64,000 bases of DNA from Planctomycetes bacterium GWF2_41_51 (GTDB taxonomy: Bacteria > Planctomycetota > Phycisphaerae > Sedimentisphaerales > UBA12454): positions 18,994-82,993 of the forward strand of contig MHXZ01000112.1 of NCBI GenBank assembly GCA_001825665.1, in the 5' to 3' direction. The position numbers and the translations under genes are program-made. The first letter of the stretch is position 1, and each line of letters starts with the position of its first letter. Below the pieces are notes generated by a model, which saw nothing but the letters and a program-made list of their open reading frames with translations, did not search any database and was not told the DNA's origin. Below, in pieces: positions 10,962 to 27,992 of this stretch.

Positions 10962-10968
10962 AGTTTGG

Positions 10969-12189
10969 TCATGAGATAGTTTTTTCAAGAATCTCATCTT
11001 TTACCTTATCGGGAACAGGCAAATCGTGAGGTCCTTTTTGCGGCAGTGTAATAGTGAAGGTGGTTCCTTTATTCAGTTCGCTTTCAACAGAAATTGTTCC
11101 TTCGTGCCTGCTGATAATTTGAGCAACAATGGGCAGGCCCAAACCGGTACCTGCGATTTCTTTGCCCGGTCTTTTTACGCGATAGAATCTTTCGAAAATT
11201 TTAGATATATCATCTTTGGGAATTCCCATACCTGAATCAGAAACAGCAATTGAAATTATGTCGTTTTGCTGGAAGGCACTAAGAGATACTTTGCCGCCTG
11301 CAGGAGTAAATTTAACTGCATTGCTTAAAAGATTGGTCAGTACCTGGATAATTCTGTTATGATCGAATAAAGCGGCTCCAATTTGCGGATCGATATTAAG
11401 GGACATTTCCACTTTTGCTTTATTGGCCATCAGGGTCATTGTCTCTGCCGCTTCTTTTATGGTTACAGCCATATCGGAATATGCGAAATCGAATCTCATT
11501 CTGCCTGAATCGAGTTTTTGAAAATCGAGCACATCATTAATGAGCGTACTGAGCCGATCGACGTTTCTCTTTGCGAGCAGCAGAAATTCCCGCTGTTTTT
11601 TCCTTAGCCTGCCTGCAACTCCTTCGAGAACAATATTTAAACCTTCTCTAATGGCGGTCAAAGGCGTCCTCAGTTCGTGGGAAACGGTAGAAATAAACTG
11701 CTGCTTAAGTTCCATAGATTCGGCAAGTTTTTCCTCAGCGAGTTTTCTATCAGTAATATCATTGAGACAAACGACAACATGATTTCGTTCGTCTACAATG
11801 ACAGGTTTGATAGTTAAAGAAAACCATAATTTTGCGCCTTTTTCGCGGAAAAAGGTTTCGCTTTCAAATTCATATTCTTCAATCGCCTGCGAGGTGTTAA
11901 AAACTTTGGCAATATTTGTCTTCAAGGGACATATATTGCAGCAATCGCCTTCGCCGCAGCGTTTACCAATCGCGATTTTACAGCTCAGTGCATCGCCAAT
12001 CGAATTACTGATTATGTACTTAAAATCTTTTCCTATCATCCTTCGAATCGCATTGTTGACTCTATCAACAACCAGATTTTCATCCACAAGCATAAGGCCG
12101 ACGGGAATAGCATCAAAAATTGCTTCGAGACTCTTACTTTTGCGTTCGATGATGAGGTTTAATTTTTCATTGATCATTAAGTCAGACAA
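10969..12189 (-). CDS. Cytoplasmic PAS-domain sensor histidine kinase
   Basis: HisKA H-box SHELRTPLTAI. The HATPase_c N, G1 and G2 boxes are present (LLSNAVKFT, DSGMGI, GTGLGL). There is no TM segment. The PAS region carries a Cys-rich insert CKIAIGKRCGEGDCCNICPLKTN. Confidence 0.85.
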   Translation of the reverse strand: MSDLMINEKLNLIIERKSKSLEAIFDAIPVGLMLVDENLVVDRVNNAIRRMIGKDFKYIISNSIGDALSCKIAIGKRCGEGDCCNICPLKTNIAKVFNTSQAIEEYEFESETFFREKGAKLWFSLTIKPVIVDERNHVVVCLNDITDRKLAEEKLAESMELKQQFISTVSHELRTPLTAIREGLNIVLEGVAGRLRKKQREFLLLAKRNVDRLSTLINDVLDFQKLDSGRMRFDFAYSDMAVTIKEAAETMTLMANKAKVEMSLNIDPQIGAALFDHNRIIQVLTNLLSNAVKFTPAGGKVSLSAFQQNDIISIAVSDSGMGIPKDDISKIFERFYRVKRPGKEIAGTGLGLPIVAQIISRHEGTISVESELNKGTTFTITLPQKGPHDLPVPDKVKDEILEKTIS

Positions 12190-12211
12190 GCGGCACCATT
12201 AAATTTACGGG

Positions 12212-12610
12212 TCATTTATTATCAATGACGTTCGTAATTTTCTCAAGCAGTTGAGGATACTCGAAAGGTTTGGTAACATACTCTGTAACGCCGAGCGAAC
12301 CTGCCAATGAAATATTAGTCGATTCGCAAACCGCTGTTAACATTATCACAGGTATATTCCTGAACCTGCTGTCCTGTCTCATCCGTTCAAGCATCTGAAA
12401 ACCTGACATCACAGGCATATTACCGTCGAGCAGAATCAAATCGGGTGTTATAGTTTCAAGTTTCTCGAGTGCCGCGCTGCCGTTGGAAGCTGTCTCTACT
12501 TTGAATTTGTTCCATTCAAGTCTGGCTTTGATTGTACTGACAAGATCTGGTTCGTCATCCACAACAAGAATTGTAGCAGTTTTTTTCTTCGTTTTAAACA
12601 AACCGAGCAT
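12212..12610 (-). CDS. Single-domain (CheY-like) response regulator
   Basis: Receiver motifs ILVVDDEPD...LILLDGNMP...MLTA...KP. I moved the start from 12700 to the internal ATG at 12610 (MLGLFKTKKK...), because the upstream extension is hydrophobic junk. The gene lies 22 nt upstream of the kinase gene. Confidence 0.85.
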   Translation of the reverse strand: MLGLFKTKKKTATILVVDDEPDLVSTIKARLEWNKFKVETASNGSAALEKLETITPDLILLDGNMPVMSGFQMLERMRQDSRFRNIPVIMLTAVCESTNISLAGSLGVTEYVTKPFEYPQLLEKITNVIDNK

Positions 12611-12839
12611 AGCATTTTCCTTATAAATATATCCTTTGTTAATTTCGACCATTCTGAGGTCGGCTTTAAGTAAAAAATAAGTTATTCCATAGAAGAGCAT
12701 TCTTTTCGAGCGCTTTTAATGGGATTCACTTTTATCGGGCGTTGCCAAAGAACAAAATGACATTTAGGTTAAGCAACAGGACAGTTTTGACGATTTTTGA
12801 AATGCGCAGAAAATATATTTAGCGGACGCGGGAAAAAAT

Positions 12840-14546
12840 ATGCAGGAATTGCAGACAGAAAATCCGTTATATGAAGTGATAATCAGTCTGGGCATCGCCG
12901 ACAGACAAAGGCTCGACCAGATGATTGACCAATGCGCTCAAAACGGCAAAAATATACTTACATTTCTTAAAGAAAACAATCTCGCAACTGAGGAACAGCT
13001 AAGCAGGCTTGTTGCTCAAAGCCAGCATATCGAATTTATAAATCTATCACCCGACATGATCGAAGCAATCGCTGCGCATATGATTCCATACGAAATTTCA
13101 AATGAACACAACCTAATAGGTGTTCGTTTGGATGGCAATAAATTATTTGTGGCGATGTGTTCTCCAATGAACCTCGCTATTCGCGACCAGATAGAAATGC
13201 GAACCGGATGCAAAGTTATCCCACAGGCAGCGGCTCCAAATGCTATAAAAAGCGCTATACGTTATCACTTCAATATTCAGAATGTAACCAAGCAGACAAT
13301 AGTCTCAATGAGGCTCAAAAAAAATGCAGAGCAGGAAAAAGAGCAGCGCCCATTGGCAATTCTGGATAAACTCCAGGAAAGCGAAGACCCGGTCAGCGGA
13401 CTTGTGGCTTCAATCATAAGCGGAGCTATAGATGCACACGCAAGCGATATTCACATCGAGCCTCAGGAAAAAGATACGATTATCAGGTACAGGGTTGACG
13501 GAATCCTGCGAAAAGAGTTAGATATTCCTTCTACCGCACAGGGTGAAATGGCAAGTCATATAAAAATTCTTGCCAAAATGGATATCGCCGAAAAAAGGAT
13601 TCCCCAGGACGGCCATATTAAAACCGTTCATCAAAATAAAGAATACGACCTTAGAGTTTCATCGCTGCCATCAATCATCGGAGAGAAAATCGTTATACGT
13701 ATTCTCAATAAAAGCGGCAACAGATGGAACCTTGATAATATCGCACCGGACTCGTTCGATAATCAGCAGATAAGAAAACTTGTTGAAAATCCATACGGAA
13801 TGATTCTTCTTACCGGCCCCACCGGAAGCGGCAAAACCACAACGCTATATTCCTTATTGCAGCTTCTTAATACAGGCAAAAATAATATCGTTACAGTTGA
13901 AGACCCGGTTGAATACAGACTTGAAGGAATTACTCAGGTACCGACAAATCCGCGAGCGGGATTGACCTTCGCGACGGCACTGAGAAGTATTTTGCGACAG
14001 GACCCGGATGTGATTCTAATAGGCGAAATAAGAGATTATGAAACAGCTGAAATAGCCGTCAGCGCCGCAATGACCGGGCATCTCGTGCTTTCGACTCTGC
14101 ATACCAATGATGCCGCAGGAGCCGTATCAAGACTTATAAATCTGGGGGTTCCTCCTTTTATGCTGGCATCTTCTCTTCTCGGTACTATCGCACAAAGACT
14201 TTACAGGGCATCATGCGTAACGTGCAAACAACCGTATACGCCTGAACCCAATATCAAAAAGACGCTGTTTGCAGATGAACCTGAAAATATGGTTCTTTAC
14301 CGCGGCATCGGCTGTGACAATTGCGGCAAAAGCGGATACGCAGGAAGAAAAGCTATTTATGAAATTTTGCCGATTTCGACAACGATTCGAAATATGATGA
14401 TTGAAGGCAAAAACGATACCCTGATAAAATATCAGGCAATAAAAGAGGGTATGAGAACTCTGCGAATGAGCGGAATCAAACAAGTTATGGCCGGTTCGAC
14501 CACTGTCGATGAATTATATCGCGTCGTTGATATGCAGGAGGATTAA
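12840..14546 (+). CDS. gspE: GspE/PilB-family secretion ATPase
   Basis: T2SSE_N-type N-domain. Walker A is GPTGSGKTT, with Asp/His boxes. A tetracysteine motif is present (CVTCKQPY...CDNCGKSGY). The stop overlaps the next start (TAATG at 14544-14548). Confidence 0.9.
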   Translation: MQELQTENPLYEVIISLGIADRQRLDQMIDQCAQNGKNILTFLKENNLATEEQLSRLVAQSQHIEFINLSPDMIEAIAAHMIPYEISNEHNLIGVRLDGNKLFVAMCSPMNLAIRDQIEMRTGCKVIPQAAAPNAIKSAIRYHFNIQNVTKQTIVSMRLKKNAEQEKEQRPLAILDKLQESEDPVSGLVASIISGAIDAHASDIHIEPQEKDTIIRYRVDGILRKELDIPSTAQGEMASHIKILAKMDIAEKRIPQDGHIKTVHQNKEYDLRVSSLPSIIGEKIVIRILNKSGNRWNLDNIAPDSFDNQQIRKLVENPYGMILLTGPTGSGKTTTLYSLLQLLNTGKNNIVTVEDPVEYRLEGITQVPTNPRAGLTFATALRSILRQDPDVILIGEIRDYETAEIAVSAAMTGHLVLSTLHTNDAAGAVSRLINLGVPPFMLASSLLGTIAQRLYRASCVTCKQPYTPEPNIKKTLFADEPENMVLYRGIGCDNCGKSGYAGRKAIYEILPISTTIRNMMIEGKNDTLIKYQAIKEGMRTLRMSGIKQVMAGSTTVDELYRVVDMQED

Positions 14547-15742
14547 TGGCGACATACGAATATACAGCACGTGATGGAGCCGGCCATATTTTCAACGGTA
14601 TTTATGAAGATATAAACAGTGTAAGCGCGCTGAAAAGTGAATTTACGAAAATCGGCTATAAACTCTTAAAAGTAAAAAGACGAACAAAATTCAATCCGAA
14701 ATCTTTCAATGTCAAACGTTCAGAAGTCATACCATTTACTTATCAACTGGCAGGAATGTGCGGCGCAGGTCTGTCAATCGTACAAAGTCTCGATACACTC
14801 GAAAAACAAACAGAAAACAAATCTCTGCAATATATTATCGCGGATGTAAAAAAGAACATATCAGTAGGTTCATCGCTTACGGACGCATTTAGAAAATACC
14901 GAGACATATTTTCAGATTTTTTTCTTGGTATGGTTGAGGCGGGCGAATCAAGCGGTAAACTTCCTGAAAGCCTCGAAATCAGCGCTCGTTATATGGAGAA
15001 ACAAAACGATCTAAGAGTCCGAATAAAAAATGCGTTTACATATCCGCTGATAGTTATGTTTATGTGCATTGTTATCGTGGCCGCTCTGATAATTTTTATT
15101 GTGCCTGTATTTTCAAAAATTTACGGTCAACTCGGGGTATCACTGCCGGGGCCGACACAAATGCTTATCGTTATAAGTGTTATTTTCAGAAATTACTGGA
15201 TTTATTTAATAATATTCTTTTGCCTGTTTTTATATTCTTTTCAATACCTGCGTAAAAATAAATATATCAAAACGAAATGGGACTACTTTAAATTTTCAAT
15301 GCCGATTTTAGGCAAATTAAACAAAATCGCAGCGGCAACTAATTTCATCCGAAGCTTTTCAATGCTCATAACAACAGGCGTGCCGATAATTAAAGCGCTG
15401 CAGGTGTCTGGTCTTGTATCCAATAATGAAAAGATGTCTTGCATCTGCCAGGATCTTCAAAAATCCGTTCAATCAGGCAAGAACCTGTCAGAATCACTTC
15501 AAAATCATAATATTTTCCCTCCTTTGATAGTTCAACTTGCAGGCGCGGGCGAACAATCCGGACAAATAACACAGATGCTTAATAAAGGCGTTGAATTTCT
15601 TGAAAAAGATATCGATAGAATCATCACTTCCCTGCTGGTGAAACTCGAACCGGCACTTACATTGGGAATGGGAATCATTATAGGACTAATACTAATGGCG
15701 GTGTATCTGCCAATGTTCGATTATATGTCACATTTGAAATAA
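14546..15742 (+). CDS. gspF: GspF/PilC-family inner-membrane platform protein
   Basis: Duplicated T2SF domain architecture with three TM segments. Translationally coupled to the ATPase gene. Confidence 0.85.
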   Translation: MATYEYTARDGAGHIFNGIYEDINSVSALKSEFTKIGYKLLKVKRRTKFNPKSFNVKRSEVIPFTYQLAGMCGAGLSIVQSLDTLEKQTENKSLQYIIADVKKNISVGSSLTDAFRKYRDIFSDFFLGMVEAGESSGKLPESLEISARYMEKQNDLRVRIKNAFTYPLIVMFMCIVIVAALIIFIVPVFSKIYGQLGVSLPGPTQMLIVISVIFRNYWIYLIIFFCLFLYSFQYLRKNKYIKTKWDYFKFSMPILGKLNKIAAATNFIRSFSMLITTGVPIIKALQVSGLVSNNEKMSCICQDLQKSVQSGKNLSESLQNHNIFPPLIVQLAGAGEQSGQITQMLNKGVEFLEKDIDRIITSLLVKLEPALTLGMGIIIGLILMAVYLPMFDYMSHLK

Positions 15743-15846
15743 AATACCTAAAATTGAAAATTTAAGATAAGTAGGTTGTTTTTTCAGCCGATTATGTATT
15801 TAGTAAAAATTTTATGTATAAATCGCTTTTCGAAAGGAGATTTAAG

Positions 15847-16164
15847 ATGAAACGTAAAGGCTTTACATTGATAGAGCTGCTTATCGTGATTTTGATATTG
15901 GGAGCATTGGCTGCTATAGCAATACCAAGAATCACGACAAGTGCCGGTACAGCAAAAGAGAACGCATGTGCTACTAACATAGACCTGCTGAATTCTCAAA
16001 TCGAGCTGTACGCCGCCGATAAAGACGGTGTTTATCCGGCATCACTGGGAACACTTACGGGAAATAAAGACTATTTTCCGGAGGGCGAACCAGAATGTCC
16101 ATTAAAGGGAAAATATTCAATGGACGAATCGACTCACAGAGTAAGCTGTAGTCATACAAAGTAA
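15847..16164 (+). CDS. gspG: Major pseudopilin/pilin (prepilin-type N-terminal methylation domain)
   Basis: MKRKG|FTLIELLIVILILGALAAIAIP with Glu at +5. GGAG lies 7 nt upstream of the ATG at 15847; the track start at 15814 is probably too far upstream. The mature protein is about 100 aa with paired Cys residues. Confidence 0.8.
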   Translation: MKRKGFTLIELLIVILILGALAAIAIPRITTSAGTAKENACATNIDLLNSQIELYAADKDGVYPASLGTLTGNKDYFPEGEPECPLKGKYSMDESTHRVSCSHTK

Positions 16165-16232: not shown

Positions 16233-16688
16233 ATGAAAAAGAACGCAAAAGCCTTTACTCTTGCTGAAATGCTTATAGTCGTATTGATAATAAGCGCGTT
16301 TACTTTCATTGCCGTTCCAAGAATGGGAATGGCGACAATTTTCAGGGGCAAATCAGAAATAGCGGCAAATCAAATCGCTTCCGCAATCAGGCTTTGCAGA
16401 ACGCTTGCTATAGATAATGCAGCAGTAAATAAGCAGGGTTACAGTTTAAATATGACAGGAAGCGGCCAATACAGTGGTTTCCAAATCGTCAATCTGCAAA
16501 CAAACCAGATAGTGAAATCGGAAACAATTCCAACCAGTGTCAGTTGTAAAGGAACTGGTAACTTCAGATTCAATCCTCTGGGCAGCAGAACAGACGGCAA
16601 CGGTATACTAATGGTCACAGGCGGCGGAAAAAATTATAAATTATCCGTTATTTCATCAACGGGAATGGTCAGATGCGAAAAAAATTAA
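16233..16688 (+). CDS. Minor pseudopilin (GspH-position)
   Basis: MKKNAKA|FTLAEMLIVVLIISAFTFIAVP prepilin-type leader, in the gene-order position of GspH. Confidence 0.7.
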   Translation: MKKNAKAFTLAEMLIVVLIISAFTFIAVPRMGMATIFRGKSEIAANQIASAIRLCRTLAIDNAAVNKQGYSLNMTGSGQYSGFQIVNLQTNQIVKSETIPTSVSCKGTGNFRFNPLGSRTDGNGILMVTGGGKNYKLSVISSTGMVRCEKN

Positions 16689-17065
16689 GAAGACGACAAG
16701 GTTTTACATTGCCGGAAGTTCTGACAGCAAGTGCCCTGCTTGTAATTGCATTCGTGCCGATATTAAAAGCACTTACGCAGATTAATTTGAGTACGGTTAT
16801 AATTGAAAGAAGAACAAAAAGCCTGAACCTGGCTAAAATGAAAATAAATCATCTGCACGCAAAATCAATTAAAAATTTTGATGATGATTTTTCCGAAAGT
16901 AATTTAGTTCTCGATAGTTTTTATTTGTGTAACATTTCAAATCAATCAGTAAACGGCAACCTGAAATCAATCGTGGTTTCAGTAGGTATGGATCGCAACG
17001 GCAACAGAACTCTCGACAGCAGTGAAGTAGAGATTTCACTTCAAACCCAATTAGCACGCAGATAA
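16673..17065 (+). CDS. Minor pseudopilin (GspI-position)
   Basis: RRRQG|FTLPEVLTASALLVIAFVP prepilin-type leader. It overlaps the upstream gene by 16 nt. Confidence 0.7.
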   Translation: MRKKLRRRQGFTLPEVLTASALLVIAFVPILKALTQINLSTVIIERRTKSLNLAKMKINHLHAKSIKNFDDDFSESNLVLDSFYLCNISNQSVNGNLKSIVVSVGMDRNGNRTLDSSEVEISLQTQLARR

Positions 17066-17239: not shown

Positions 17240-19174
17240 ATGAGACAAAGTATGTATATGCGCAAAGAAAAATTAAAAAAGGCATTTACGCTGATGGAGC
17301 TGATGGTTTCAGCTGCGCTGCTGCTTGTGATAATGGCGGCAATTGTTCCGCAGTTTCGCGCAATACGCAATAGCTGGGCAACAACCCAGGACTCTTCTGT
17401 AAAAATTCAAAACGGTCTTGTACTCGATGAACATCTAAACAGAAATCTCACAACGGCTTCACAAATAACAGCTGTCAGTTCGAGCGAAGTTGGAAATGGG
17501 TTTATAACTTTCAAGGATAATCTCGGAGCAACTCAAAAATATATGGTCGAAGACGGCTATATCGTATTCGGTCCTGTTGGACATGAAGAACAACTCGCAG
17601 GCCCTGTCAGCAAATTTCAGATAAGCTGCTATTCGCTGAATGATTTAGAAAATCCAATGACAGATGTTAGCAGGATCCGACTGGTTAAGATTGAAACAGA
17701 AATTACAAATAGCGATTCTCAGAGTTCGGCTAACAAAGTTATTTCAGAAGTTTTCATACAAACAAACAAATCAACTATATCAGACCAGAACGTTATTGAT
17801 ATAATTATCAATCCTGACCAGCCTGACACCGCTTATGATTACACAGAAGGCGACCATGGCTGCGATGCAGTTATCGAAATTGAAAAGAACAGTACTCAAG
17901 GTCTCTTGTGCTTTAAAGGCATTGTTGGCAACGCAAGCTGGCAAATACCGCAGAATACCGAAATTACCGAAGCGAAACTGGAACTTTGGTGTGTTAATCA
18001 TAACGGCAATCATGATGTTTACATATATCGAATGAATGTCGGGTGGACTGAAACCTCAACATGGAACAACATCGGCGGAGGAATCATTCCGGGTACGAAC
18101 TGCGATTCGATGAGCGTTGTAACAGCAAATCTCGGAAACAGTGTTCCAACTTCGGTCGAGATTGATGTAACCGAAATTGTGCGGGGATGGATCAACGGCG
18201 ATTATCCAAATTTCGGATTCGGTTTCATCAACAGCAAAAATAACAGTCTTCAATTTGCCGCAGCGGAAAACAGAACAGGAACCGGTGCTCATACTCCGCG
18301 GCTTATAATTAGTTATCAGTCAACTGATAACAATCCTAAAATCGCTTTGAAAAATACATTAAATTACGGCGGCTCACACGGTATTATCGACAGTTATAAT
18401 TCAAGTGCAGGTTTTTACGGCGGAAGCAATATTTCTCATAATGCAGTTGTTACATCAAACGCGATCGGAAGCGACATAATAACACTTTACAGCGGCGGCA
18501 GGATTTACGGTGATGCATACATCGGACCGGGCGGCAATCCTGCTATTGGATTTTCAACATGGGGCTCTACAATCACCGGTGAAGAAGGAACTCTTGATGA
18601 AGCCGTCGATTTGCCAACTCCAACTGCACCGACAGGTCATCCTTTTCATGGTTGGCACGAAGGAGATTTCCCGAGCAATGACTGGCTCGGCGGTGAACGA
18701 ATACTTAACAGTAATCATTATTTTAACAGTATTTCTATCTGGAGTTCTTATATCACTATCAACGGCAACATTACAGTTTTATTAAATAATGACCTGAATA
18801 TCGGCAGCGGCCGAAGTATAAGAATTCCTCCGGGTTCGAGCCTGAATCTATACGTCAAAGGCAATTGTAACATAGGCGGAGATATAAATTCATTTTTTGA
18901 TCGACTGCCTTCAAATTTAAAAATTTATATGATCGGCAATAATAAATCTTTCAGCACATGGGGCACTGGAAATGTTTATGCCCTGCTTGATAATCCAAAT
19001 GGTTCGGTCAGCCTTTGGGGCGGGCAATTTTATGGGCGAATAAAAGCAAAATATCTTTCAGGCGGATGCAAAATTCACGTTGACCTCGATTCGAATTTCG
19101 GCAGCGGAGGAGGAAGCCCAAGTAGACTGTGGACTTTCGGCGGAAATATTATTCAGGGCGAGATACTGCCATAA
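17240..19174 (+). CDS. Giant minor pseudopilin (GspJ-position) with a DNRLRE-like domain and a C-terminal beta-helix-like module
   Basis: KLKKA|FTLMELMVSAALLLVIMAAIVP prepilin-type leader; the start may be the ATG at 17258. The middle segment (EAKLELWCVNHNGNHDVYIYRMNVGWTETSTWNNIG...VEIDVTEIVRGWINGDYPNFGFGF...) resembles the DNRLRE secreted-protein domain. The C-terminus has G/N-rich repeats ending ...GRIKAKYLSGGCKIHVDLD. Confidence 0.7.
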   Translation: MRQSMYMRKEKLKKAFTLMELMVSAALLLVIMAAIVPQFRAIRNSWATTQDSSVKIQNGLVLDEHLNRNLTTASQITAVSSSEVGNGFITFKDNLGATQKYMVEDGYIVFGPVGHEEQLAGPVSKFQISCYSLNDLENPMTDVSRIRLVKIETEITNSDSQSSANKVISEVFIQTNKSTISDQNVIDIIINPDQPDTAYDYTEGDHGCDAVIEIEKNSTQGLLCFKGIVGNASWQIPQNTEITEAKLELWCVNHNGNHDVYIYRMNVGWTETSTWNNIGGGIIPGTNCDSMSVVTANLGNSVPTSVEIDVTEIVRGWINGDYPNFGFGFINSKNNSLQFAAAENRTGTGAHTPRLIISYQSTDNNPKIALKNTLNYGGSHGIIDSYNSSAGFYGGSNISHNAVVTSNAIGSDIITLYSGGRIYGDAYIGPGGNPAIGFSTWGSTITGEEGTLDEAVDLPTPTAPTGHPFHGWHEGDFPSNDWLGGERILNSNHYFNSISIWSSYITINGNITVLLNNDLNIGSGRSIRIPPGSSLNLYVKGNCNIGGDINSFFDRLPSNLKIYMIGNNKSFSTWGTGNVYALLDNPNGSVSLWGGQFYGRIKAKYLSGGCKIHVDLDSNFGSGGGSPSRLWTFGGNIIQGEILP

Positions 19175-19179
19175 AGAAT

Positions 19180-19575
19180 ATGAAAAAAGAAATGAAACAT
19201 AATGGTTCAGTTTTATTGATAGCAATTTTTACAATTGCCCTGCTGACGGCGTTTGTTGTGGGAATGCTGCAGCTTAACAGTGAACAGTTCCAGATTATGA
19301 AAAATGAAATATTCGCCGCTCAGGCGAATTTAATCGCTGAGGCAGGTATTGCCGATGCTTTTGCCCGTATCCGCAGCAGTCGAGCTCTGCCGCCGAATTT
19401 CAACCGCAATTTCGGGGGCGGTTCGTACAGCGTTACCGTTTCAGGTTCAATACCGAACCCGAATTTTACATCGAGAGGAACTTCCCCGCAGGGATTTGTT
19501 TCTGATATTCAAGTCGATGTAACCATTGACAGCAACTCGTATGTTATTCGTATCGACAAGATGAGGATAAACTGA
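19180..19575 (+). CDS. GspK/PilX-like minor pseudopilin
   Basis: MKKEMKHNGSVLLIAIFTIALLTAFVVGMLQL is a PilX_N/GspK-type hydrophobic N-terminus without the Glu+5 motif. The start is set at the ATG at 19180, 6 nt after the upstream stop. Confidence 0.6.
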   Translation: MKKEMKHNGSVLLIAIFTIALLTAFVVGMLQLNSEQFQIMKNEIFAAQANLIAEAGIADAFARIRSSRALPPNFNRNFGGGSYSVTVSGSIPNPNFTSRGTSPQGFVSDIQVDVTIDSNSYVIRIDKMRIN

Positions 19576-21083
19576 TGAATCCAAATCATAAAAAAGCAAT
19601 AGGCATAGATGTTTGCGGTAAGTTTGTGAATATCATTTGCCTTAAGAAGAACGGCAGAAAAATCATTCTGACCTACAGCAAACAATTACCGCTTGCCAAA
19701 GAAATTATAAACGGCGAAACCGGCGCAGCTTTGAAATCTCTTGCAGGCACTTTAAAGCATTTAAAATTGACAAAACGCCTTTCGCACTGCGAAGCAGGTT
19801 TATGTGTCTGCTCTTATCCTGAGCTTCTTCAGATTTTCAAACTTCCGGATTCTGCACCGCAGGCAGGAATAAAATTCATACAGGATGAAATTCGGCAATA
19901 CGCGGTTCTGCCTCTTAAAAATATTAAGACAGATTATTGTATGCTGCAGGGAAATATGGGTTCTGAAAACAGACGCGTTCTTGTAGGAGCGTGTCAACCG
20001 GAGCCGTTTGCAGAGGCGGCTAAAGAACTGGAAAAGATTCAAATCGATGTCAACCTGGTAGAACCTGCTATAGTTTCACTTATCAGAGCATGCTATAGAA
20101 AAGTCATTATGCAGACAGAGCATAAGAATACAATATTCATTCTTCTGCGAGATGATGTTATAAACCTTTGCGTATTTAACGGAAGTAAGTTCGATTTTCT
20201 GCGTACAAAGAAAATCGATTGTAATAATTCAGAGCAAAACTCCCCTGCCGAGGTTATCGCAGAACAGGTGGAATCCGTTATCCAATACTACGAACTTGAG
20301 AAAGCTTCTGATCAAAATAAATGGCAATTATTTTTAAACTGCTGTCCGCATACATCTGAAAGTCCGCGAATGGCGGAGCAACTAAAAAAGCTTACAAATC
20401 GCCAAAATTTGGAAATTTATGCGATTGGACCAGAACATATAGGCATAGAATCAGAAAATAAAAATACAGTTGATTTTTCAGTTGTGGCTGTTGGAGCGGC
20501 AATGAAGCTGCTCGATTGCAACGATTCTCAAATCAGTATTAATATGATTCCCGATGAACTATCGGAAATCAGGAAATCGTACAAACATTTTCTTATGATA
20601 ATTAACACGGCAGCGGTAATTCTTTTGCTGTTATTTTTACACATTGCGCAGCTTTCGGTAAAAACGGCAGAAGCTAATACAGAAATATCCAAAAAATCCA
20701 AATCGCGATCAAATATTCCCCAGCTTGCTCGTGTTGAGGAAGACGTTAATTCGCAGACTTTACAGGTAACGAAACAAATAAATATTCTGCGCGACATTAA
20801 CAAAGACAGGGTATGGAATAATCTGGCCAATATATTAGTAGACATTTCAAATAAAGCGCCGGAAACAATACAGTTTCACACTATTGAGTCGAGAATTTCC
20901 GGCAAATTAACTATTGATGGCATAGCTGTGAGTTATGATGCTGTAAATAGTTTCATCGAAAAACTTGCAGCCTGCAAATCAATCAGTTCCACTCAAATTA
21001 CGTATGTCAAACAAAATATGCTTTACGGCAATGGTCTTGTAGATTTTTCAATAAATTGCACCCTTGCTGAGAAGGATAATTGA
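19575..21083 (+). CDS. GspL-like protein (PilM-type actin-like domain, TM helix, PilN-like periplasmic domain)
   Basis: The N-terminal KKAIGIDVCGKFVNIICL is a PilM-like phosphate-1 motif. There is one TM helix (FLMIINTAAVILLLLFLHIAQL), followed by a coiled coil and an alpha/beta domain. The start overlaps the upstream stop (TGATG at 19573-19577). Confidence 0.65.
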   Translation: MNPNHKKAIGIDVCGKFVNIICLKKNGRKIILTYSKQLPLAKEIINGETGAALKSLAGTLKHLKLTKRLSHCEAGLCVCSYPELLQIFKLPDSAPQAGIKFIQDEIRQYAVLPLKNIKTDYCMLQGNMGSENRRVLVGACQPEPFAEAAKELEKIQIDVNLVEPAIVSLIRACYRKVIMQTEHKNTIFILLRDDVINLCVFNGSKFDFLRTKKIDCNNSEQNSPAEVIAEQVESVIQYYELEKASDQNKWQLFLNCCPHTSESPRMAEQLKKLTNRQNLEIYAIGPEHIGIESENKNTVDFSVVAVGAAMKLLDCNDSQISINMIPDELSEIRKSYKHFLMIINTAAVILLLLFLHIAQLSVKTAEANTEISKKSKSRSNIPQLARVEEDVNSQTLQVTKQINILRDINKDRVWNNLANILVDISNKAPETIQFHTIESRISGKLTIDGIAVSYDAVNSFIEKLAACKSISSTQITYVKQNMLYGNGLVDFSINCTLAEKDN

Positions 21084-21084
21084 T

Positions 21085-21687
21085 ATGACTTCTGATATGC
21101 AAAATATTTCAAAACGAAATGTGATGGTTTCGGCGGTTTTGATAATAATCGCGATAGCCATTTATCACTGGTTTGTAACGCCGCATTCACAATATCTTAT
21201 GGCTGCGGAACAATATCAGAAAGCTATAGATACTATAGATAAGAAAAGCAAAATTCTCAACAGCCAGATTCAAATACGGCGAAAAAAACTTGAGAACCTG
21301 ACAAAAGAATTCGAGGAATATAAAGAAGGATATTTTGAAACTGAACAGGCAAAGGATTTTCTTTCGAATCTTCAGACTGCCGCCGAAAACAGCGGATGCG
21401 CAGTTAAAAACATAAAATTCCCGCCATCAAGGTATGCTCCTGTTAAAGGCAGTGAAGAGATGATAATTCATCAATACCAGGCTAATTTATCGCTGCAAGG
21501 TGAATACAGCAGCATCTTAAAATTTCTAAATACCATTCACAACAGACCTGAAAAAGTATGGGTGGAATCGATAAATTTTGAAATGAAAAACACAGAGAAT
21601 GGAGACCTCGGCTGCGATGTCACATTAAGTATTTACACATTAAAGGTTATGGAGCGCATTAAAAATGTTAACAATAAACAAAAATAG
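21085..21687 (+). CDS. GspM/PilO-like bitopic protein
   Basis: N-terminal TM helix (VMVSAVLIIIAIAIYHWFV), a coiled coil and a C-terminal ferredoxin-like region. The start is set at the ATG at 21085, which has GAAGGA upstream. Confidence 0.55.
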   Translation: MTSDMQNISKRNVMVSAVLIIIAIAIYHWFVTPHSQYLMAAEQYQKAIDTIDKKSKILNSQIQIRRKKLENLTKEFEEYKEGYFETEQAKDFLSNLQTAAENSGCAVKNIKFPPSRYAPVKGSEEMIIHQYQANLSLQGEYSSILKFLNTIHNRPEKVWVESINFEMKNTENGDLGCDVTLSIYTLKVMERIKNVNNKQK

Positions 21688-22918
21688 CAGATTAATTTTA
21701 ACGTTTATAATTCTTTTATCTGCATCAGTTTTCGCGGCAGAGGAAATCGATATCAATTCGATAACAAAAAGTAATCCTTTCGCGAGATTTACACCAAGGC
21801 AAGCAACTCCCGGCAGCGTCGCAGTAATTGATAAACCAGACCTGGTTGTTGAAACAGCTACGCTGAAATTCCTCGATGCAAAAAGTGTTAAAGCCTCAAT
21901 TATAAATATGGCAAGCAATTATGGGAACATTGAGACAGATGACAAAGTTAACGCGTTGATTATCTGCGATACGCGGGAGAATGTCGATAAAATTCTCCTG
22001 CAAATCCGAAAGATAGACCGCAAACCAGACCAGGTTATGATTGAAGTTGTCATCGTTGATGTGAAGCTCGATAACGAAACTGAAATCGGCGTTAACTGGG
22101 ATATGCTCACAAATGATTATAGAGATGCAGTTTACAGGCAAAATCTTAATTTTTCAAACCGTCTAACTGCTACACCTCAAACAGGTAACATAGAAAATGC
22201 AACTGCATTCAACACAATAGGTACTGCCGGGGATTTCTGGCTTATTATGGGAGATATAAGAACAGTCATTCATGCATTGCAGCAAAGAAACAAAGTAGAA
22301 ATTATCGCAAGTCCGCGCGTTATGGTATTGAGCGGACAGACAGCATCTATTGAGTCCGTCGAAGAGATACCATATTCCGAACTATCACAAACAAGCGAGG
22401 GAGGCTCGTTAACAAGTACACAGTTTAAAAATGTTGGCGTTACACTCGATATCGGTGCAACTTTAACAGATGATAAATATATCCTGTTAGATGTTGAATC
22501 AGGGCAAAAAGTCAGGACGGGTTCCAGCATCGACGGAGTACCCATTGTTGATGCAAGAGTAGTCAAGAGTTCTCTTCTGCTTGAAGATGGGCAGACTCTC
22601 GTAATAGGCGGACTGCGACGAAAGGAAATGCAGAAACAAACTAATCAAATTCCATTTCTTGGTGATATTCCTGTTGTTGGTTTGGCGTTTAAGGCCACGA
22701 ATACAGTCGAAAATAATTCGGAGCTTCTGATAATTCTTTCACCGCACATATACGCAGGTGAGAAACCAAACGCACAGCAAATGAAGAAATTTAATGAAAT
22801 AACCAAAAGACCTCTTCTGACTATTTCGGAATTCGAAGAAGAAAAAGAAAAAAAAGAAAGAAAAGAGAAAGCGGAAAAACTGAAAAAGGAAAAGGTAACG
22901 AAGAAGGTAACAAAATAG
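21665..22918 (+). CDS. gspD: Short secretin (one N1-type domain plus secretin domain) with a Lys/Glu-rich tail
   Basis: Signal peptide. Secretin_N-like segment (DDKVNALIICDTRENVDKILLQIRKIDRKPDQVMIEVVIVDV). Secretin core (VEIIASPRVMVLSGQTASI...LVIGGLRRKEMQKQTNQIPFLGDIPVVGLAFK). Tail EEEKEKKERKEKAEKLKKEKVTKKVTK. Confidence 0.8.
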   Translation: MLTINKNSRLILTFIILLSASVFAAEEIDINSITKSNPFARFTPRQATPGSVAVIDKPDLVVETATLKFLDAKSVKASIINMASNYGNIETDDKVNALIICDTRENVDKILLQIRKIDRKPDQVMIEVVIVDVKLDNETEIGVNWDMLTNDYRDAVYRQNLNFSNRLTATPQTGNIENATAFNTIGTAGDFWLIMGDIRTVIHALQQRNKVEIIASPRVMVLSGQTASIESVEEIPYSELSQTSEGGSLTSTQFKNVGVTLDIGATLTDDKYILLDVESGQKVRTGSSIDGVPIVDARVVKSSLLLEDGQTLVIGGLRRKEMQKQTNQIPFLGDIPVVGLAFKATNTVENNSELLIILSPHIYAGEKPNAQQMKKFNEITKRPLLTISEFEEEKEKKERKEKAEKLKKEKVTKKVTK

Positions 22919-22957: not shown

Positions 22958-24745
22958 ATGAATTGCAAGACAAACGTCGTTCATGTAACACACGAAGCGG
23001 TAAGCAAAATTGGCGGTATCGGCGCAGTGCTCGAAGGAATGCTCACAAATAAAGTTTATCTCGAATCAACGGGAAGAACAATTCTTATCAGCCCTCTCTT
23101 CTCCACTGACGGACCAGTAGAAAATCGTCTCGGTCTCGGAGGTGAGGTGCTTTATTCGAGTGTTGATGGTTTTGTGCAAACGGGATATAACGAAACTTTC
23201 AAACATATTGAAAAATATTTCAATGTCGATATCGTTTACGGCAGAAAACTTTTCGAAGACAGACGCCACGGTATTACAAGCTCGCCCGAAGTTATATTAA
23301 TTGATGTTCGTCAAATTAATGCTCATGCGATAAACGAATTCAAAAGACAATTGTTTGAGCATTTCGGCATATCGAGCATGAGATACGAGCACATCTGGGA
23401 TTATGAAGAATGGACAAGGCTCGCCCCGCCGGCAATCGCTGCTATCAAAGCAATAGGAGCCGCTCCTCATAACGGCAGCACCGTAGTATTCAGTCATGAG
23501 TTTATGGGAATGCCCACAGCACTTGCCGCCAAACTCGAACAAGACTGCAATTTCAGGACAGTTTTCTATGCGCACGAAGTTGCCACTGTCCGGCGAATAG
23601 TAGAAGATAGAACCGGTCACGATACAATGTTTTATAATGTAATGAACGCCGCAACTGCACGCGATATGTCGCTGCCTGATGTATTCGGAGACCAAAACGG
23701 CTATGCCAAACATGCACTTGTAAACGCTTCAAAATTTTGTGACAAAATATATGTAGTAGGCGACCTTGTCGGCGAAGAAATGAAATTCTTATCGAAGGAA
23801 TTCGACTCCGCTCAAATTCAACTCGCTTATAACGGCATCCCCGCTTATCAAATCAGTCTTGAAGAAAAAAATATTTCACGCAACAGATTGCGCCAGTACA
23901 GCAAAAATCTGCTCGGGTTCGAGCCGGATTATCTATTTTCTCACGTAACCCGGCTTGTACGCAGCAAAGGGCTTTGGCGGGATTTAAGGGTACTGGAGCA
24001 TATAGATAAAGAATTATGCGCACAGAACAAAACGGGAGTAATGTTCTTTTTGAGTACCGAAGTAGGCCCGCGAAGAGAACATGATATTCTGAAAATGGAA
24101 TCGGAATATCACTGGCCGGTTGTGCATCATGACAGGCTGCCGGATTTAAGCGGAGGTGAAGCTGTTTTTTACACAGCAGTTCAGGAGTTCAACGCAAGAA
24201 GCAGAAATGTAAAAGTTGTTTTTATAAACCAGTTCGGTTTCAACAGGCAACGCTGCGGCAATAGAATGCCCGAAGATATGGAATTCATGGATATCAGAAA
24301 AGGTACCGATGTCGAATTCGGCCAAAGCATCTATGAGCCGTTCGGAATTGCACAATTGGAGCCTTTGAGTTTTGGAGGTATATGCGTTGTAAGCAGCGTT
24401 TGCGGATGTGCCGGTTTTATTAAAAGAATCTGCAATCCTGAAGAAGTAAAAAATGTGATAATAGCGGACTACACTGATCTGAACGGAATGAAATTTAACA
24501 GTATGGATGAATTGCTCAAAATAAATCTTGAGACCAGAGACCGGCTGGAGCATCATATCAGTCAGAAAGTCGCAGTTCAAATACTCACGAATCTACCGCG
24601 CAGCGATGAGGATTTAGCCAATATGATTAATACAGGATATCTCCTGGCCGCACAGATGAGTTGGGATGTTGCCGTTGAGAATTATATTTTGCCCGGACTT
24701 CCAAAAACAGATGCAATAAAACAAGAATCAGTTTCATTAGCATAA
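22958..24745 (+). CDS. GT-B fold glycosyltransferase, glycogen-synthase (GT3/GT5)-like
   Basis: The N-terminal VVHVTHEAVSKIGGIGAVLEG resembles the E-x-x-x-K-[IV]-GG-[IL] motif of glycogen synthases. The C-terminal SIYEPFGIAQLEPLSFGG resembles the GT-B EX7E region. Confidence 0.5.
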   Translation: MNCKTNVVHVTHEAVSKIGGIGAVLEGMLTNKVYLESTGRTILISPLFSTDGPVENRLGLGGEVLYSSVDGFVQTGYNETFKHIEKYFNVDIVYGRKLFEDRRHGITSSPEVILIDVRQINAHAINEFKRQLFEHFGISSMRYEHIWDYEEWTRLAPPAIAAIKAIGAAPHNGSTVVFSHEFMGMPTALAAKLEQDCNFRTVFYAHEVATVRRIVEDRTGHDTMFYNVMNAATARDMSLPDVFGDQNGYAKHALVNASKFCDKIYVVGDLVGEEMKFLSKEFDSAQIQLAYNGIPAYQISLEEKNISRNRLRQYSKNLLGFEPDYLFSHVTRLVRSKGLWRDLRVLEHIDKELCAQNKTGVMFFLSTEVGPRREHDILKMESEYHWPVVHHDRLPDLSGGEAVFYTAVQEFNARSRNVKVVFINQFGFNRQRCGNRMPEDMEFMDIRKGTDVEFGQSIYEPFGIAQLEPLSFGGICVVSSVCGCAGFIKRICNPEEVKNVIIADYTDLNGMKFNSMDELLKINLETRDRLEHHISQKVAVQILTNLPRSDEDLANMINTGYLLAAQMSWDVAVENYILPGLPKTDAIKQESVSLA

Positions 24746-27969: not shown

Positions 27970-27992
27970 ATATACGTCTTTCGTAGTTCGGT

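What the first reader, a model, noticed from the sequence alone, without database searches (positions are those of the whole stretch)
17240..19174. A 644-aa pseudopilin at the GspJ position carrying a DNRLRE-like domain and a beta-helix-like C-terminus
Minor pseudopilins are normally 130-230 aa. This one has a bona fide prepilin leader (KKA|FTLMELMV...). It is followed by about 180 aa of pilin-like sequence. Next comes a segment resembling the DNRLRE secreted-protein domain (EAKLELWCVNHNGNHDVYIYRMNVGWTETSTWNNIGGG...VEIDVTEIVRGWINGDYPNFGFGFINSKNN). A ~270-aa G/N-rich repetitive C-terminus follows, ending in ...FYGRIKAKYLSGGCKIHVDLD, which resembles the beta-helical tails of some PilX/PilY-like tip proteins.

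A cargo-sized module fused to a tip pseudopilin suggests the fibre displays an adhesin or a glycan-binding or enzymatic head. That would differ from a classical piston-type T2SS.
Basis: partly seen in the sequence, partly recalled or inferred. Interest (0 to 1): 0.6.

Follow-up and report, generated by a model that had tools for sequence, protein, structure and literature searches.

The report
Pilus tip subunit with swappable sugar-binding head
This gene encodes an oversized pilus subunit from a Phycisphaerae (Planctomycetota) bacterium: a normal pilin "handle" carrying a carbohydrate-binding module and a beta-helix, and related bacteria keep the same handle at the same locus but swap in different sugar-binding heads, so it is a new variant of the known "modular pilin" idea rather than a new kind of machine.

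Summary
Window 17240-19174 (+) is an intact 644-codon ORF. It has a class III (prepilin) signal with the assembly glutamate E5, a ~170-aa pilin module, a DNRLRE/CBM96 module (67.8 bits, cut-off 34), and a ~260-aa beta-helix containing DUF7305.

It is the fourth pilin gene of a type IV filament cluster: ATPase, platform, G, H-like, I-like, this gene, short K-like, PilM-N, PilO, secretin. The source is Planctomycetes bacterium GWF2_41_51.

- The middle domain scores as DNRLRE/CBM96.
- The long form is conserved. 18 orthologues are 50-76% identical end to end, and about 20 syntenic loci have a gene of 443 to at least 968 aa at this position.

New findings:
- The pilin module is a constant carrier. 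The head is an exchangeable cassette (CBM96 + helix, CBM96 + other, helix only, LamG x1-2, DUF1349, pentaxin-like).
- One strain pair shows 97% and 95% DNA identity on either side of a non-homologous cassette.
- Cassettes of every type end in a C-terminal [ILVM]-x-P motif, which is unexplained.
- DUF7305 beta-helices occur mostly on PilX/GspK-type tip pilins.

Best reading: a tip-displayed glycan-binding adhesin. Function is inferred, not shown. This is a new variant of the known modular pilins.

The parts
17240..19174 (+). Complete ORF of the modular J-position prepilin (644 codons + stop; likely true start at 17252 or 17258)
17240..17302 (+). Class III (prepilin) signal: basic leader ending in A15, predicted cleavage before F16 (17285), start of hydrophobic alpha1N with E5 = E20 (17297-17299)
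   Evidence: N_methyl and TIGR02532 hits; E20 invariant in 18 orthologues and 69 scaffold homologues
17276..17794 (+). Carrier pilin module (aa 13-185), J-class: long alpha1 helix plus 8 beta-strands
   Evidence: Sub-HMM found in 77+ proteins. AF2 pLDDT 83. Best PDB match Tt1219/5g24, probability 0.97, E 0.087. Tt1219 is the GspJ/XcpW counterpart (PMC5131608). A stand-alone 188-aa form exists.
17816..18310 (+). DNRLRE / CBM96 beta-sandwich module (aa 193-357)
   Evidence: NF033679 67.8 bits vs cut-off 34; PF24517 38.7 vs 26. Foldseek top hits 8wab (CS-binding CBM) and 4ycg, the same neighbours as the CBM96 founding paper. A phage CBM96 protein is among the BFVD hits.
18320..19099 (+). Beta-helix module containing DUF7305 (aa 361-620), with family-wide conserved motifs DSYNS (aa 384-388) and HVDLD (aa 613-617)
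   Evidence: PF23981 30.3 bits vs cut-off 27. AF2 pLDDT ~90. Weak fold matches to IBP-type beta-helices. 5,170 cluster representatives. Invariant columns.
19100..19171 (+). G/S-rich linker and conserved C-terminal tail (W631...ILP-COOH); terminal [ILVM]-x-P motif at 19163-19171
   Evidence: W631 and P644 invariant. The motif ends 70 of 77 scaffold-bearing proteins whatever the module type and all complete genes at this position in syntenic loci.
12840..14546 (+). Assembly ATPase (PilB/GspE family, with MshEN N-terminal domain)
   Evidence: T2SSE 440 bits, MshEN 52 bits. PilB 560 vs GspE 538 bits, both below their equivalog cut-offs.
14546..15742 (+). Platform protein (GspF/PilC family)
15814..16164 (+). 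Major (pseudo)pilin, G-like (G|FTLIE)
   Evidence: N_methyl 35 bits; ComGC and GspG partial hits
16233..16688 (+). H-like minor pilin (A|FTLAE)
   Evidence: ComGD, XpsH and GspH partial hits
16673..17065 (+). I-like minor pilin (G|FTLPE)
   Evidence: ComGE partial hit, N_methyl
19180..19575 (+). Short K-like minor pilin (131 aa, G|SVLLIAI, no E5), starting 6 nt after the J stop
   Evidence: GspK N-terminal hit at E 7e-7. 131-137 aa in all relatives. ATG at 19180.
19575..21083 (+). PilM-PilN fusion
21064..21687 (+). PilO-like protein
21665..22918 (+). Short secretin (417 aa)
   Evidence: Secretin 143 bits. PilQ 197 and GspD 168 bits, both below cut-off.
10969..12700 (-). Histidine kinase and response regulator, conserved upstream of the cluster in relatives

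Best explanation
The gene encodes a tri-modular minor pilin of a Phycisphaerae type IV filament machine.

**Shown**
- It has a class III signal with E5.
- It has a self-sufficient J-class pilin module.
- A CBM96/DNRLRE beta-sandwich and a DUF7305 beta-helix are grafted C-terminally, followed by a short conserved tail.
- It occupies the fourth pilin slot of a conserved E-F-G-H-I-J-K-PilMN-PilO-secretin cluster.
- In relatives the same pilin module at the same locus carries other lectin-type heads, exchanged as whole cassettes.

**Inferred mechanism**
1. A prepilin peptidase cleaves the leader.
2. The alpha1 helix bundles with the H-, I- and K-like minor pilins into the priming complex that caps the fibre.
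3. The ATPase polymerises the 116-aa major pilin underneath and pushes the cap out through the secretin.
4. Because K is small here (131 aa) and J is huge, J's modules form the exposed head.
5. The CBM96 module binds a polysaccharide. By analogy with characterised CBM96 members this is possibly an acidic one.
6. The beta-helix acts as a rigid stalk or a second adhesive face, as in ComZ-like tip pilins.
7. Cassette exchange retunes which glycan a strain attaches to or captures.
For: - **Signal, domains and gene order:**
- **Conservation of the long form:**
- **One carrier module with many heads:**
- **Same syntenic locus in all cases, with lengths of 443 to at least 968 aa:**
- **Clean cassette replacement:** DNA identity is 97.4% over the pilin module, absent over the head, and 94.7% from the stop codon / K start. 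The I protein is 97% identical and K is 95%.
- **The carrier is a complete pilin on its own:** the 188-aa P0245 sits in a syntenic cluster.
- **J-class fold:**
- **CBM96 fold and family:**
- **Beta-helix mostly on GspK/PilX-type N-termini, often with PA14, LamG or adhesive domains:**
- **Precedents:** modular pilins displayed at pilus tips (PMC8179133); ComZ, a tip pilin with an IBP-like beta-solenoid (PMC6561018); dextran binding to pilus-like fibres of Planctomycetes (PMC5394234).
Against: - No experiment or multimer model shows incorporation into a fibre, tip location or glycan binding.
- The window holds no prepilin peptidase and no PilT, and the rest of the genome was not examined.
- The machine cannot be typed as T4P or T2SS.
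- The secretin is short (417 aa), and whether a ~630-aa subunit can pass through it is unknown.
- AF2 confidence is only moderate for the CBM96 part (pLDDT 60-78) and low for the linkers and tail.
- Foldseek support for the J class is weak (E 0.087, TM 0.42).
- CBM96 ligand specificity cannot be read from the sequence.
- The conserved [ILVM]-x-P tail is not explained by this model.
Confidence: 0.6

Rival explanations
1. The cluster is a type II secretion system. The fibre is a short periplasmic pseudopilus, and the lectin-type head on J engages cargo (for example glycosylated exoproteins) or cell-envelope glycans during secretion, rather than acting as an external adhesin.
For: The platform protein scores best as GspF (299 vs 273 bits). 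The ATPase scores almost equally as GspE (538) and PilB (560). The major pilin is short and GspG/ComGC-like. No PilT is present in the window. T2SS tip complexes are thought to contact substrates (general knowledge; PMC5131608).
Against: There is no GspC, and GspL and GspM give only weak hits. PilM-N and PilO are present instead. All equivalog cut-offs are missed. The only glycoside hydrolase linked to the locus, GH2, lacks a signal peptide. Exchangeable lectin heads between close strains fit environmental ligand diversity better than a conserved secretion role.
Confidence: 0.15
2. The head is an enzyme. The beta-helix would be a polysaccharide lyase or hydrolase and CBM96 its targeting module, giving a pilus-displayed CAZyme.
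For: CBM96/DNRLRE modules are typically appended to alginate, hyaluronate, pectate or chondroitin lyases (PMC9971899; 8wab). Beta-helices are the common lyase fold (noted in PMC6561018). The family-wide invariant polar motifs DSYNS and HVDLD could form a metal or catalytic site.
Against: No PL or GH family is hit in Pfam or NCBIfam. The nearest folds are ice-binding-type beta-helices, not lyases or tailspike depolymerases. Relatives have heads made only of lectin domains. DUF7305 relatives co-occur with adhesin-type domains.
Confidence: 0.08
3. It is a ComZ-like DNA receptor of a competence pilus.
For: The G, H, I and K proteins give their best partial NCBIfam hits to ComGC, ComGD, ComGE and ComGG. 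The secretin is HofQ-sized. ComZ is a tip pilin with an IBP-like beta-solenoid that binds DNA. ComZ is the top PDB hit for a broad profile of DUF7305 proteins, though only at E 0.016 and only over the pilin part.
Against: All Com hits are far below their cut-offs and cover mainly the N-terminal helix. The heads at this locus are carbohydrate-binding folds and vary between strains, which makes little sense for DNA binding. Many variants lack the beta-helix altogether. No ComEA, ComEC or DprA was identified among the cluster's own or adjacent genes scanned. The rest of the window was not scanned for them.
Confidence: 0.07
4. The protein is never polymerised. The pilin-like N-terminus only anchors it in the inner membrane, where the modules bind imported glycans in the periplasm or act as a plug or length regulator for the fibre.
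For: Planctomycetes encode many prepilin-type paralogues of unknown role, for example ORF 3083-3940 (-) in this window. The size of the head raises the question of passage through a 417-aa secretin.
Against: Strict synteny places it between the I-like and K-like minor pilins, with near translational coupling to K (6 nt). E5 is invariant. The pilin module has a J-class fold. Precedents exist for large tip subunits such as ComZ, PilB and CofB.
Confidence: 0.08

Closest known systems
Modular type IV pilins (PilB and PilC of Streptococcus sanguinis; InterPro survey in Raynaud et al. 2021, PMC8179133)
   Same: An N-terminal pilin module carries a grafted functional module not specific to pilus biology, predicted to be tip-exposed. 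Lectin-type modules (PF13385 LamG, PA14) are already listed among known architectures.
   Different: Here the carrier is a J-class minor pilin in a diderm PVC-group bacterium. The head is CBM96 plus a DUF7305 beta-helix, and CBM96, DNRLRE and DUF7305 are not among the modules named in the passages of that paper read here. The head is shown to be swapped as a cassette at one orthologous locus, and every cassette type ends in [ILVM]-x-P.
ComZ of Thermus thermophilus (PDB 6QVI; PMC6561018)
   Same: A minor pilin with a large beta-solenoid whose nearest fold is an ice-binding protein, argued to sit at the pilus tip with neighbouring I/J-like pilins. The C-terminal domain here also hits IBP-type helices.
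   Different: ComZ has a GspK-like pilin domain with the solenoid inserted before the last strand, and it binds DNA. Here the carrier is J-like and complete on its own, the modules are appended, and a CBM precedes the helix. No sequence similarity was detected between the solenoids.
GspJ / XcpW / EpsJ / PilW and Tt1219 (J-class minor pilins)
   Same: Same gene position (after the H- and I-like genes, before the K-like gene), E5-bearing alpha1, and a two-sheet pilin fold. The best solved-structure match is Tt1219.
   Different: No hit to the GspJ sequence models. J-class pilins are typically about 200 aa and non-modular (the GspJ model is 192 positions; Tt1219 spans residues 33-236). This one is about 630 aa. 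In this system K is the small partner and J the large one, the reverse of GspK/GspJ.
CBM96 (TM6-N4 of alginate lyase Dp0100, PDB 7VBO; chondroitin-sulfate-binding CBM 8WAB)
   Same: Scores above the curated cut-offs for CBM96 and DNRLRE. Same fold neighbours (8wab, 4ycg).
   Different: It is attached to a pilin rather than a lyase. No sequence-level hit to the solved members. Ligand unknown.
PilY1/PilC and CofB tip adhesins
   Same: Large adhesive proteins presented by the minor-pilin tip complex, with variable N- or C-terminal effector modules.
   Different: PilY1 is not a pilin and is defined by a beta-propeller, for which no hit was found here. CofB belongs to type IVb pili and has different domains.

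Membership tests
Type IV pilin / pseudopilin (class III signal peptide proteins) | Short basic leader ending in Gly/Ala, followed by ~21 hydrophobic residues with Glu at +5 | tested here: met
   KKA|FTLMELMV. N_methyl 21.2 bits (= cut-off) and TIGR02532 16.7 bits (cut-off 16.3). E5 invariant in 18 and in 69 homologues.
Type IV pilin / pseudopilin (class III signal peptide proteins) | Alpha-beta pilin fold: long N-terminal helix packed on an antiparallel sheet | tested here: met
   AF2 pLDDT 83, helix 18-71 plus 8 strands. The best PDB match is a type IV-like pilin, 5g24, at probability 0.97 but a weak E of 0.087.
Type IV pilin / pseudopilin (class III signal peptide proteins) | Cleavage and N-methylation by a prepilin peptidase, and polymerisation into a filament | not testable with these tools
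   No peptidase gene was identified in the cluster, and the rest of the window was not scanned for one. No experimental data.
GspJ / PilW (J-class minor pilins) | Match to the family sequence models (TIGR01711 gspJ, Pfam T2SSJ/PilW) | tested here: not met
   No such hit at E <= 0.1. Only N-terminal-helix hits to ComGE and Verru_Chthon cassette protein C.
GspJ / PilW (J-class minor pilins) | Gene order H-I-J-K within the minor pilin operon | tested here: met
   Fourth pilin gene, between the I-like and the E5-less K-like gene, in the window and in all syntenic loci.
GspJ / PilW (J-class minor pilins) | Two-sheet J-type fold, and a heterotrimer with I and K | tested here: inconclusive
   The best structural neighbour, Tt1219, is the GspJ/XcpW counterpart, but TM is only 0.42. 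GspJ itself is not in the top 50. Complex formation could not be modelled.
Modular pilins (sensu Raynaud et al. 2021) | An N-terminal pilin module plus at least one extra domain not specific to pilus biology | tested here: met
   Pilin module aa 13-185 plus CBM96/DNRLRE aa 193-357. Definition taken from PMC8179133.
CBM96 / DNRLRE domain | Score above the curated cut-off of the family models | tested here: met
   NF033679 67.8 vs 34; PF24517 38.7 vs 26.
CBM96 / DNRLRE domain | Beta-sandwich fold of the solved members | tested here: met
CBM96 / DNRLRE domain | Carbohydrate binding via the basic groove residues of TM6-N4 | not tested
   No residue-level alignment to 7VBO was obtained (one search found no sequence hit). 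Binding needs experiment.
DUF7305 | Score above the Pfam gathering cut-off; predicted beta-helix | tested here: met
   PF23981 30.3 vs 27. pLDDT ~90 with a beta-strand ladder. 63 of 64 sampled profile hits also carry DUF7305.
Classical type II secretion system | GspC, GspL, GspM, a long GspD with N0-N3 domains, and a GspE equivalog | tested here: not met
   PilM-N and PilO are present instead, with only weak GspL_C and T2SSM_b hits (E 0.07-0.1). The secretin is 417 aa with one N domain. GspE scores 538 against a cut-off of 630.
Type IVa pilus system | PilB, PilC, PilM-N-O-P, PilQ and PilT equivalogs | tested here: inconclusive
   PilMN, PilO and a secretin are present. PilB scores 560 against a cut-off of 676 and PilQ 197 against 284. 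No PilT or PilP was found in the window.
PilY1/PilC tip adhesin | C-terminal PilY1 beta-propeller domain; not a pilin | tested here: not met
   No such Pfam hit, and the protein has a prepilin signal.

The most novel reading that the evidence does not exclude
The locus encodes a re-programmable glycan-capturing fibre. The J-class carrier pilin presents an exchangeable lectin cassette at the tip, and that cassette decides which polysaccharide a Phycisphaerae cell attaches to or hauls in. This would be the first molecular candidate for the polysaccharide-binding pilus-like fibres seen on Planctomycetes (PMC5394234). The universally retained C-terminal [ILVM]-x-P tail would be a docking or quality-control element that lets any cassette be mounted on the tip complex.
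Probability: 0.2. Interest if true: 0.8.

Novelty: new variant of a known kind. Interest (0 to 1): 0.5.

Why it matters
How simple pilus fibres acquire ligand specificity is a live question, and modular pilins are the current answer. This family gives an unusually clean natural experiment. It has one conserved carrier pilin at one conserved locus, at least six head architectures, a documented recent cassette swap between near-identical flanks, and a rare head-less form.

It also ties an experimentally defined CBM family (CBM96) and a widespread domain of unknown function (DUF7305, more than 5,000 sequence clusters, mostly on PilX/GspK-type tip pilins) to pilus tips.

For Planctomycetota, which are important polysaccharide degraders, it offers a testable candidate for fibre-mediated glycan binding. 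In practical terms the carrier plus tail could serve as a display scaffold.

Tried and rejected
2. **Locus scan query.** The 69-sequence alignment A2 was too diverse for the locus scan. It was replaced by the 11-sequence scaffold alignment A3.
3. **Word-indexed searches.** The search with the C-terminal domain gave only 5 hits, so the exhaustive representative search was used instead. The scaffold-only search returned mostly contig-end fragments, but it did reveal the genuine short form P0245.
4. **Module clustering.** Single-linkage clustering of the heads merged everything. Explicit sub-HMM and Pfam labels replaced it.
5. **TafC lead.** The NCBIfam TafC hits in long DUF7305 proteins refer to haloarchaeal Tat-fimbriae and lie outside the region shared with this protein. 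Dropped.
6. **Verru_Chthon cassette proteins.** Only weak N-terminal-helix hits, so the protein is not a member.
7. **GH2 as secreted cargo.** Rejected because it has no signal peptide.
8. **Silent cassettes and recombination signals.** No silent spare cassettes in the window, no repeats at the cassette borders, no promoter or terminator signal in the I-J gap, and no compositional anomaly.
9. **Tail as the last strand of the pilin fold (ComZ-style insertion).** Weakened by the 188-aa stand-alone carrier, which lacks the tail.
10. **Sequence searches against the PDB.** Nothing for the CBM96 part or the beta-helix.
11. **Phage depolymerase similarity.** Not found for the beta-helix.
Full report
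**Observation**

Window 17240-19174 (+) is an uninterrupted ORF of 644 codons. It is 100% identical to a hypothetical protein of "Planctomycetes bacterium GWF2_41_51" (P0001, 640 aa, which starts at the in-frame M5). Most orthologues start at the residue aligned with M7, so the true start is probably 17252 or 17258. The mature protein is unaffected.

The N-terminus...KKA|FTLMELMV, matches the prepilin methylation motif at or just above the curated cut-offs (Pfam N_methyl 21.2 bits against 21.2; TIGR02532 16.7 against 16.3). The Glu at +5 is invariant in 18 orthologues and in 69 scaffold homologues. The -1 residue is Ala here and Gly in most relatives.

- NCBIfam DNRLRE_dom matches aa 193-357 at E 1.1e-18 and 67.8 bits (cut-off 34).
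- Pfam CBM96 scores 38.7 bits (cut-off 26).
- Pfam DUF7305 matches aa 493-610 at 30.3 bits (cut-off 27).

The C-terminal 284 residues are G/S/N-rich (15.8, 11.6 and 10.6%). They contain no detectable sequence or DNA repeats, so any repetition is only that of beta-helix coils.

**Context**

The gene is the fourth of five pilin-type genes in a type IV filament cluster:

| Component | Coordinates |
|---|---|
| ATPase | 12840-14546 |
| Platform protein | 14546-15742 |
| G-like major pilin | 15814-16164 |
| H-like minor pilin | 16233-16688 |
| I-like minor pilin | 16673-17065 |
| This gene | 17240-19174 |
| K-like gene (131 aa, E5-less) | 19180-19575 |
| PilM-N fusion | 19575-21083 |
| PilO | 21064-21687 |
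| Secretin (417 aa) | 21665-22918 |

The K-like gene starts 6 nt after this gene's stop codon.

The machine cannot be typed. The ATPase scores PilB 560 against GspE 538 bits, and the platform protein scores GspF 299 against PilC 273. The secretin scores PilQ 197 against GspD 168. All of these are below their equivalog cut-offs. PilM-N and PilO are present where GspL and GspM would be, no GspC is present, and the window holds no PilT. I therefore call it a type IV filament system of unresolved subtype.

**Structure**

With 18 orthologues, AF2 gives mean pLDDT 73. Confidence is about 90 for residues 370-620, 70-87 for the pilin globular part, 60-78 for the CBM96 part, and below 50 for the linkers and the last 24 residues.

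The beta-helix part gives only weak matches to ice-binding-type beta-helices (5uyt, 3wp9, 4nu3, 6bg8; E 0.01-0.1). A search of viral models found a phage CBM96 protein and a DUF3494 protein but no depolymerases.

Folded alone with 69 homologues, the N-terminal 192 residues give pLDDT 83, with a helix at 18-71 and eight strands. The best PDB match is the Thermus type IV-like pilin Tt1219 (5g24; probability 0.97, E 0.087, TM 0.42). Its authors describe Tt1219 as the structural counterpart of XcpW/EpsJ/GspJ (PMC5131608). The module is therefore J-like by position and by its best, though weak, structural neighbour. It does not match the GspJ sequence models.

**The family: one carrier, many heads**

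The homologue search found about 19 full-length orthologues (49-76% identity). It also found some 70 proteins of 384-1108 aa that share only the first ~27% of the query.

Sub-profiles built from the orthologue alignment show that residues 13-185 form a discrete carrier module. It is followed by one of these heads:
- DNRLRE + beta-helix: 19 proteins
- DNRLRE + another C-terminal region: 6
- Beta-helix only: about 445 aa, including P0024 and P0029, plus about 20 more among the cluster representatives
- One or two Laminin_G_3 domains: 20
- An I36/crystallin-like region: 8
- DUF1349, pentaxin-like and unassigned regions

Gene-context look-ups and a scan of species-representative genomes gave about 20 independent loci. 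All come from Phycisphaerae, Sedimentisphaerales or unclassified planctomycete MAGs. All share the same order: HK-RR / E-F-G-H-I-[this gene]-K-PilMN-PilO-secretin-595-aa GT-like protein.

Measured from the prepilin motif, the gene at this position is 443, 443, 521, 567, 569, 576, 628, 632, 632, 708, 730, 787, 789, 816, 822, 822, 829, 854, 954 or at least 968 aa.

**Cassette exchange**

Head type does not follow carrier phylogeny. P0004 (CBM96 + helix) has a carrier 89% identical to that of P0045 (LamG), against 72% for its nearest same-architecture relative. P0016, P0019 and P0015 behave similarly.

At the DNA level, L027 (LamG) and L026 (CBM96 + helix) compare as follows:

| Region | Similarity |
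|---|---|
| Upstream of the gene | 86% DNA identity |
| Carrier module | 97.4% DNA identity |
| Rest of the gene | no detectable similarity |
| From the stop codon / K start onward | 94.7% DNA identity |
| I protein | 97% amino-acid identity |
| K protein | 95% amino-acid identity |

The protein alignment breaks in the last strand of the carrier (...DRTFL|SEVFIRTN against ...DRTFL|TSAYLRTN). This is a whole-head replacement between conserved flanks.

No silent cassettes, flanking repeats or compositional anomaly were found in the window. Homologous recombination through the flanks after horizontal acquisition is the simplest mechanism, but that is an inference.

A genuine head-less form exists. 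P0245 (188 aa, on a 125-kb contig) lies in a syntenic cluster, and its K gene starts 7 nt after its stop codon. The carrier is therefore a complete pilin, and the heads are grafts.

**An unexplained conserved tail**

Of 77 proteins with a complete carrier, 70 end in [ILVM]-x-P-COOH whatever the head type, for example ...GEILP...GQISP...NRVKP and ...GGILP. So do all complete genes at this position in the syntenic loci.

- P0021, which has lost the beta-helix, keeps 'WTFGG...QQVTP'.
- Beta-helix proteins without the carrier (P0047, P0093) lack the tail.
- The head-less P0245 also lacks it.
- W631 and P644 are invariant among orthologues.
- AF2 does not place this segment confidently.

Because the carrier can stand alone, the tail is unlikely to be an obligatory last strand of the pilin fold, as in ComZ. 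It may tie the end of the head back to the carrier or to a partner minor pilin, or it may be a processing signal. None of these could be tested here.

**The beta-helix**

An exhaustive profile search found 5,170 cluster representatives at E <= 1e-3, of which 2,270 are at E <= 1e-10.
- Of the 146 newly retrieved top hits, at least 57 begin with a Gly-hydrophobic, E5-less N-terminus of the PilX/GspK type, and 14 begin with an E5 prepilin signal.
- All eight such proteins tested hit the N-terminal helix region of the GspK model.
- In a 64-protein sample, 63 carry DUF7305. Co-occurring domains are PilX_N (7), PA14 (7), the 'ice-binding-like adhesive domain' (6) and LamG (4).
- Many have two to four tandem copies.
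- A profile of this sample has ComZ (6qvi) as its top PDB hit, but only at E 0.016 and only over the pilin part.

ComZ is a Thermus tip pilin whose ~380-residue solenoid most resembles the ice-binding protein FfIBP (PMC6561018). DUF7305 is thus a module that recurs on tip-type minor pilins. Here it has been mounted on the J-type carrier instead, while the K partner is minimal (131 aa).

Two polar motifs, DSYNS (aa 384-388) and HVDLD (aa 613-617), are conserved across the wider family. Their role is unknown.

**Mechanism**

Shown: the signal, the modules, the gene position, the conservation, the cassette exchange, and the lectin-type nature of the alternative heads.

Inferred:
1. After leader cleavage, the alpha1 helix joins the H-, I- and K-like pilins in the priming complex that caps the fibre.
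2. The ATPase polymerises the major pilin beneath the cap and drives it out through the secretin.
3. The CBM96 module binds a polysaccharide.
4. The beta-helix serves as a rigid stalk or a second adhesive surface.
5. Cassette exchange changes ligand specificity.

This is the modular-pilin principle of Raynaud et al. (PMC8179133). That survey already lists LamG and PA14 pilins. Dextran binding to pilus-like fibres of Planctomycetes has been observed (PMC5394234), but nothing yet connects those fibres to this locus.

I put 0.6 on the tip-displayed glycan-binding reading. The rivals are:

| Rival | Confidence |
|---|---|
| T2SS pseudopilus whose lectin tip acts in secretion | 0.15 |
| Pilus-displayed lyase or hydrolase | 0.08 |
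| Non-polymerised, membrane-anchored periplasmic protein | 0.08 |
| ComZ-like DNA receptor | 0.07 |

**Novelty and score**

The protein is a clear member of the known class of modular pilins, so it is not categorically new.

I found no description of the following in the searched literature:
- a J-class carrier that is almost always modular;
- the CBM96 + DUF7305 head;
- whole-head cassette exchange at one orthologous locus;
- the universal [ILVM]-x-P terminus;
- the link between DUF7305 and PilX/GspK/ComZ-type tip pilins.

I rate it a new variant of a known kind, with interest 0.5.

Noticed in passing
L004 3916-6405, L005 5217-7886, L006 5230-7815, and L008-L012, L016, L018, L019, L023, L025 (all minus strand, between the I-like gene and the J gene): An orthologous GH2 (beta-mannosidase-like, 830-890 aa) gene lies on the opposite strand, nested between the I-like and J genes, in 13 related loci. 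It has no signal peptide (it starts MAKQILDLTGKWQFKEYP). It is absent from the window's 175-bp I-J gap and from the whole 64-kb window. This suggests a link between the locus and glycan metabolism, but the reason is unknown.
   Followed up: partly
window 24758-30161 (-): Three conserved minus-strand genes lie just downstream of the cluster. One is a 722-aa PilM-like protein that hits the Amuc_1101 family (224 bits, below the cut-off; it also passes TIGR01175 pilM). The other two are unknown proteins of 446 and 654 aa, the latter with a Pro/Arg/Thr/Glu-rich low-complexity stretch. The trio is syntenic in L001, L002 and L007. It may be a second pilus-like module related to the Akkermansia Amuc_1098-1102 cluster.
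   Followed up: partly
window 22958-24745 (+): A 595-aa protein with only faint glycogen-synthase / GT1-like similarity follows the secretin in nearly all related loci ('GT595'). Its role in the cluster is unknown.
   Followed up: no
window 19163-19171 (+), and the C-termini of about 70 homologues: The extreme C-terminal [ILVM]-x-P-COOH motif is conserved across non-homologous head cassettes. It is absent from the head-less 188-aa form (P0245) and from beta-helix proteins that lack the carrier.
   Followed up: partly
L021, L022, L023, L024 (contig ends): Four MAG contigs begin or end inside or right at the J gene. L021 and L024 are from the same MAG and look like two halves of one cluster broken in J. 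This fits assembly fragmentation caused by cassette polymorphism within populations.
   Followed up: no
window 3083-3940 (-): A further prepilin-type ORF (285 aa, ...RCLG|FTLVELLVVISIIATLL...) lies outside the cluster. It is probably one of the many PulG-like paralogues of Planctomycetes.
   Followed up: no
window 12840-13280 (+): The assembly ATPase carries an N-terminal MshEN domain (52 bits). This domain binds c-di-GMP in MshE-type ATPases (from my own knowledge, not checked here). An HK/RR pair and a rubrerythrin gene are conserved immediately upstream (10473-12700). Regulation of the fibre by c-di-GMP or the two-component system is possible.
   Followed up: no
L026 6051-6149 (5' end of P0004): P0004 has a ~100-bp (36-aa) insertion within the leader region relative to P0045. 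It is flanked by a repeated 'G-L-T' motif, so its annotated start is probably too far upstream.
   Followed up: no
L029 3020-5779: In the cluster with the head-less 188-aa J gene, a MASE3 histidine kinase and a pirin gene occupy the I-J gap. Other loci hold GH2 there, so this gap is a recurrent insertion site.
   Followed up: no
window 18389-18403 and 19076-19090 (aa 384-388 DSYNS; aa 613-617 HVDLD): [quoted passage not shown] They could form a metal-binding, capping or catalytic site.
   Followed up: partly
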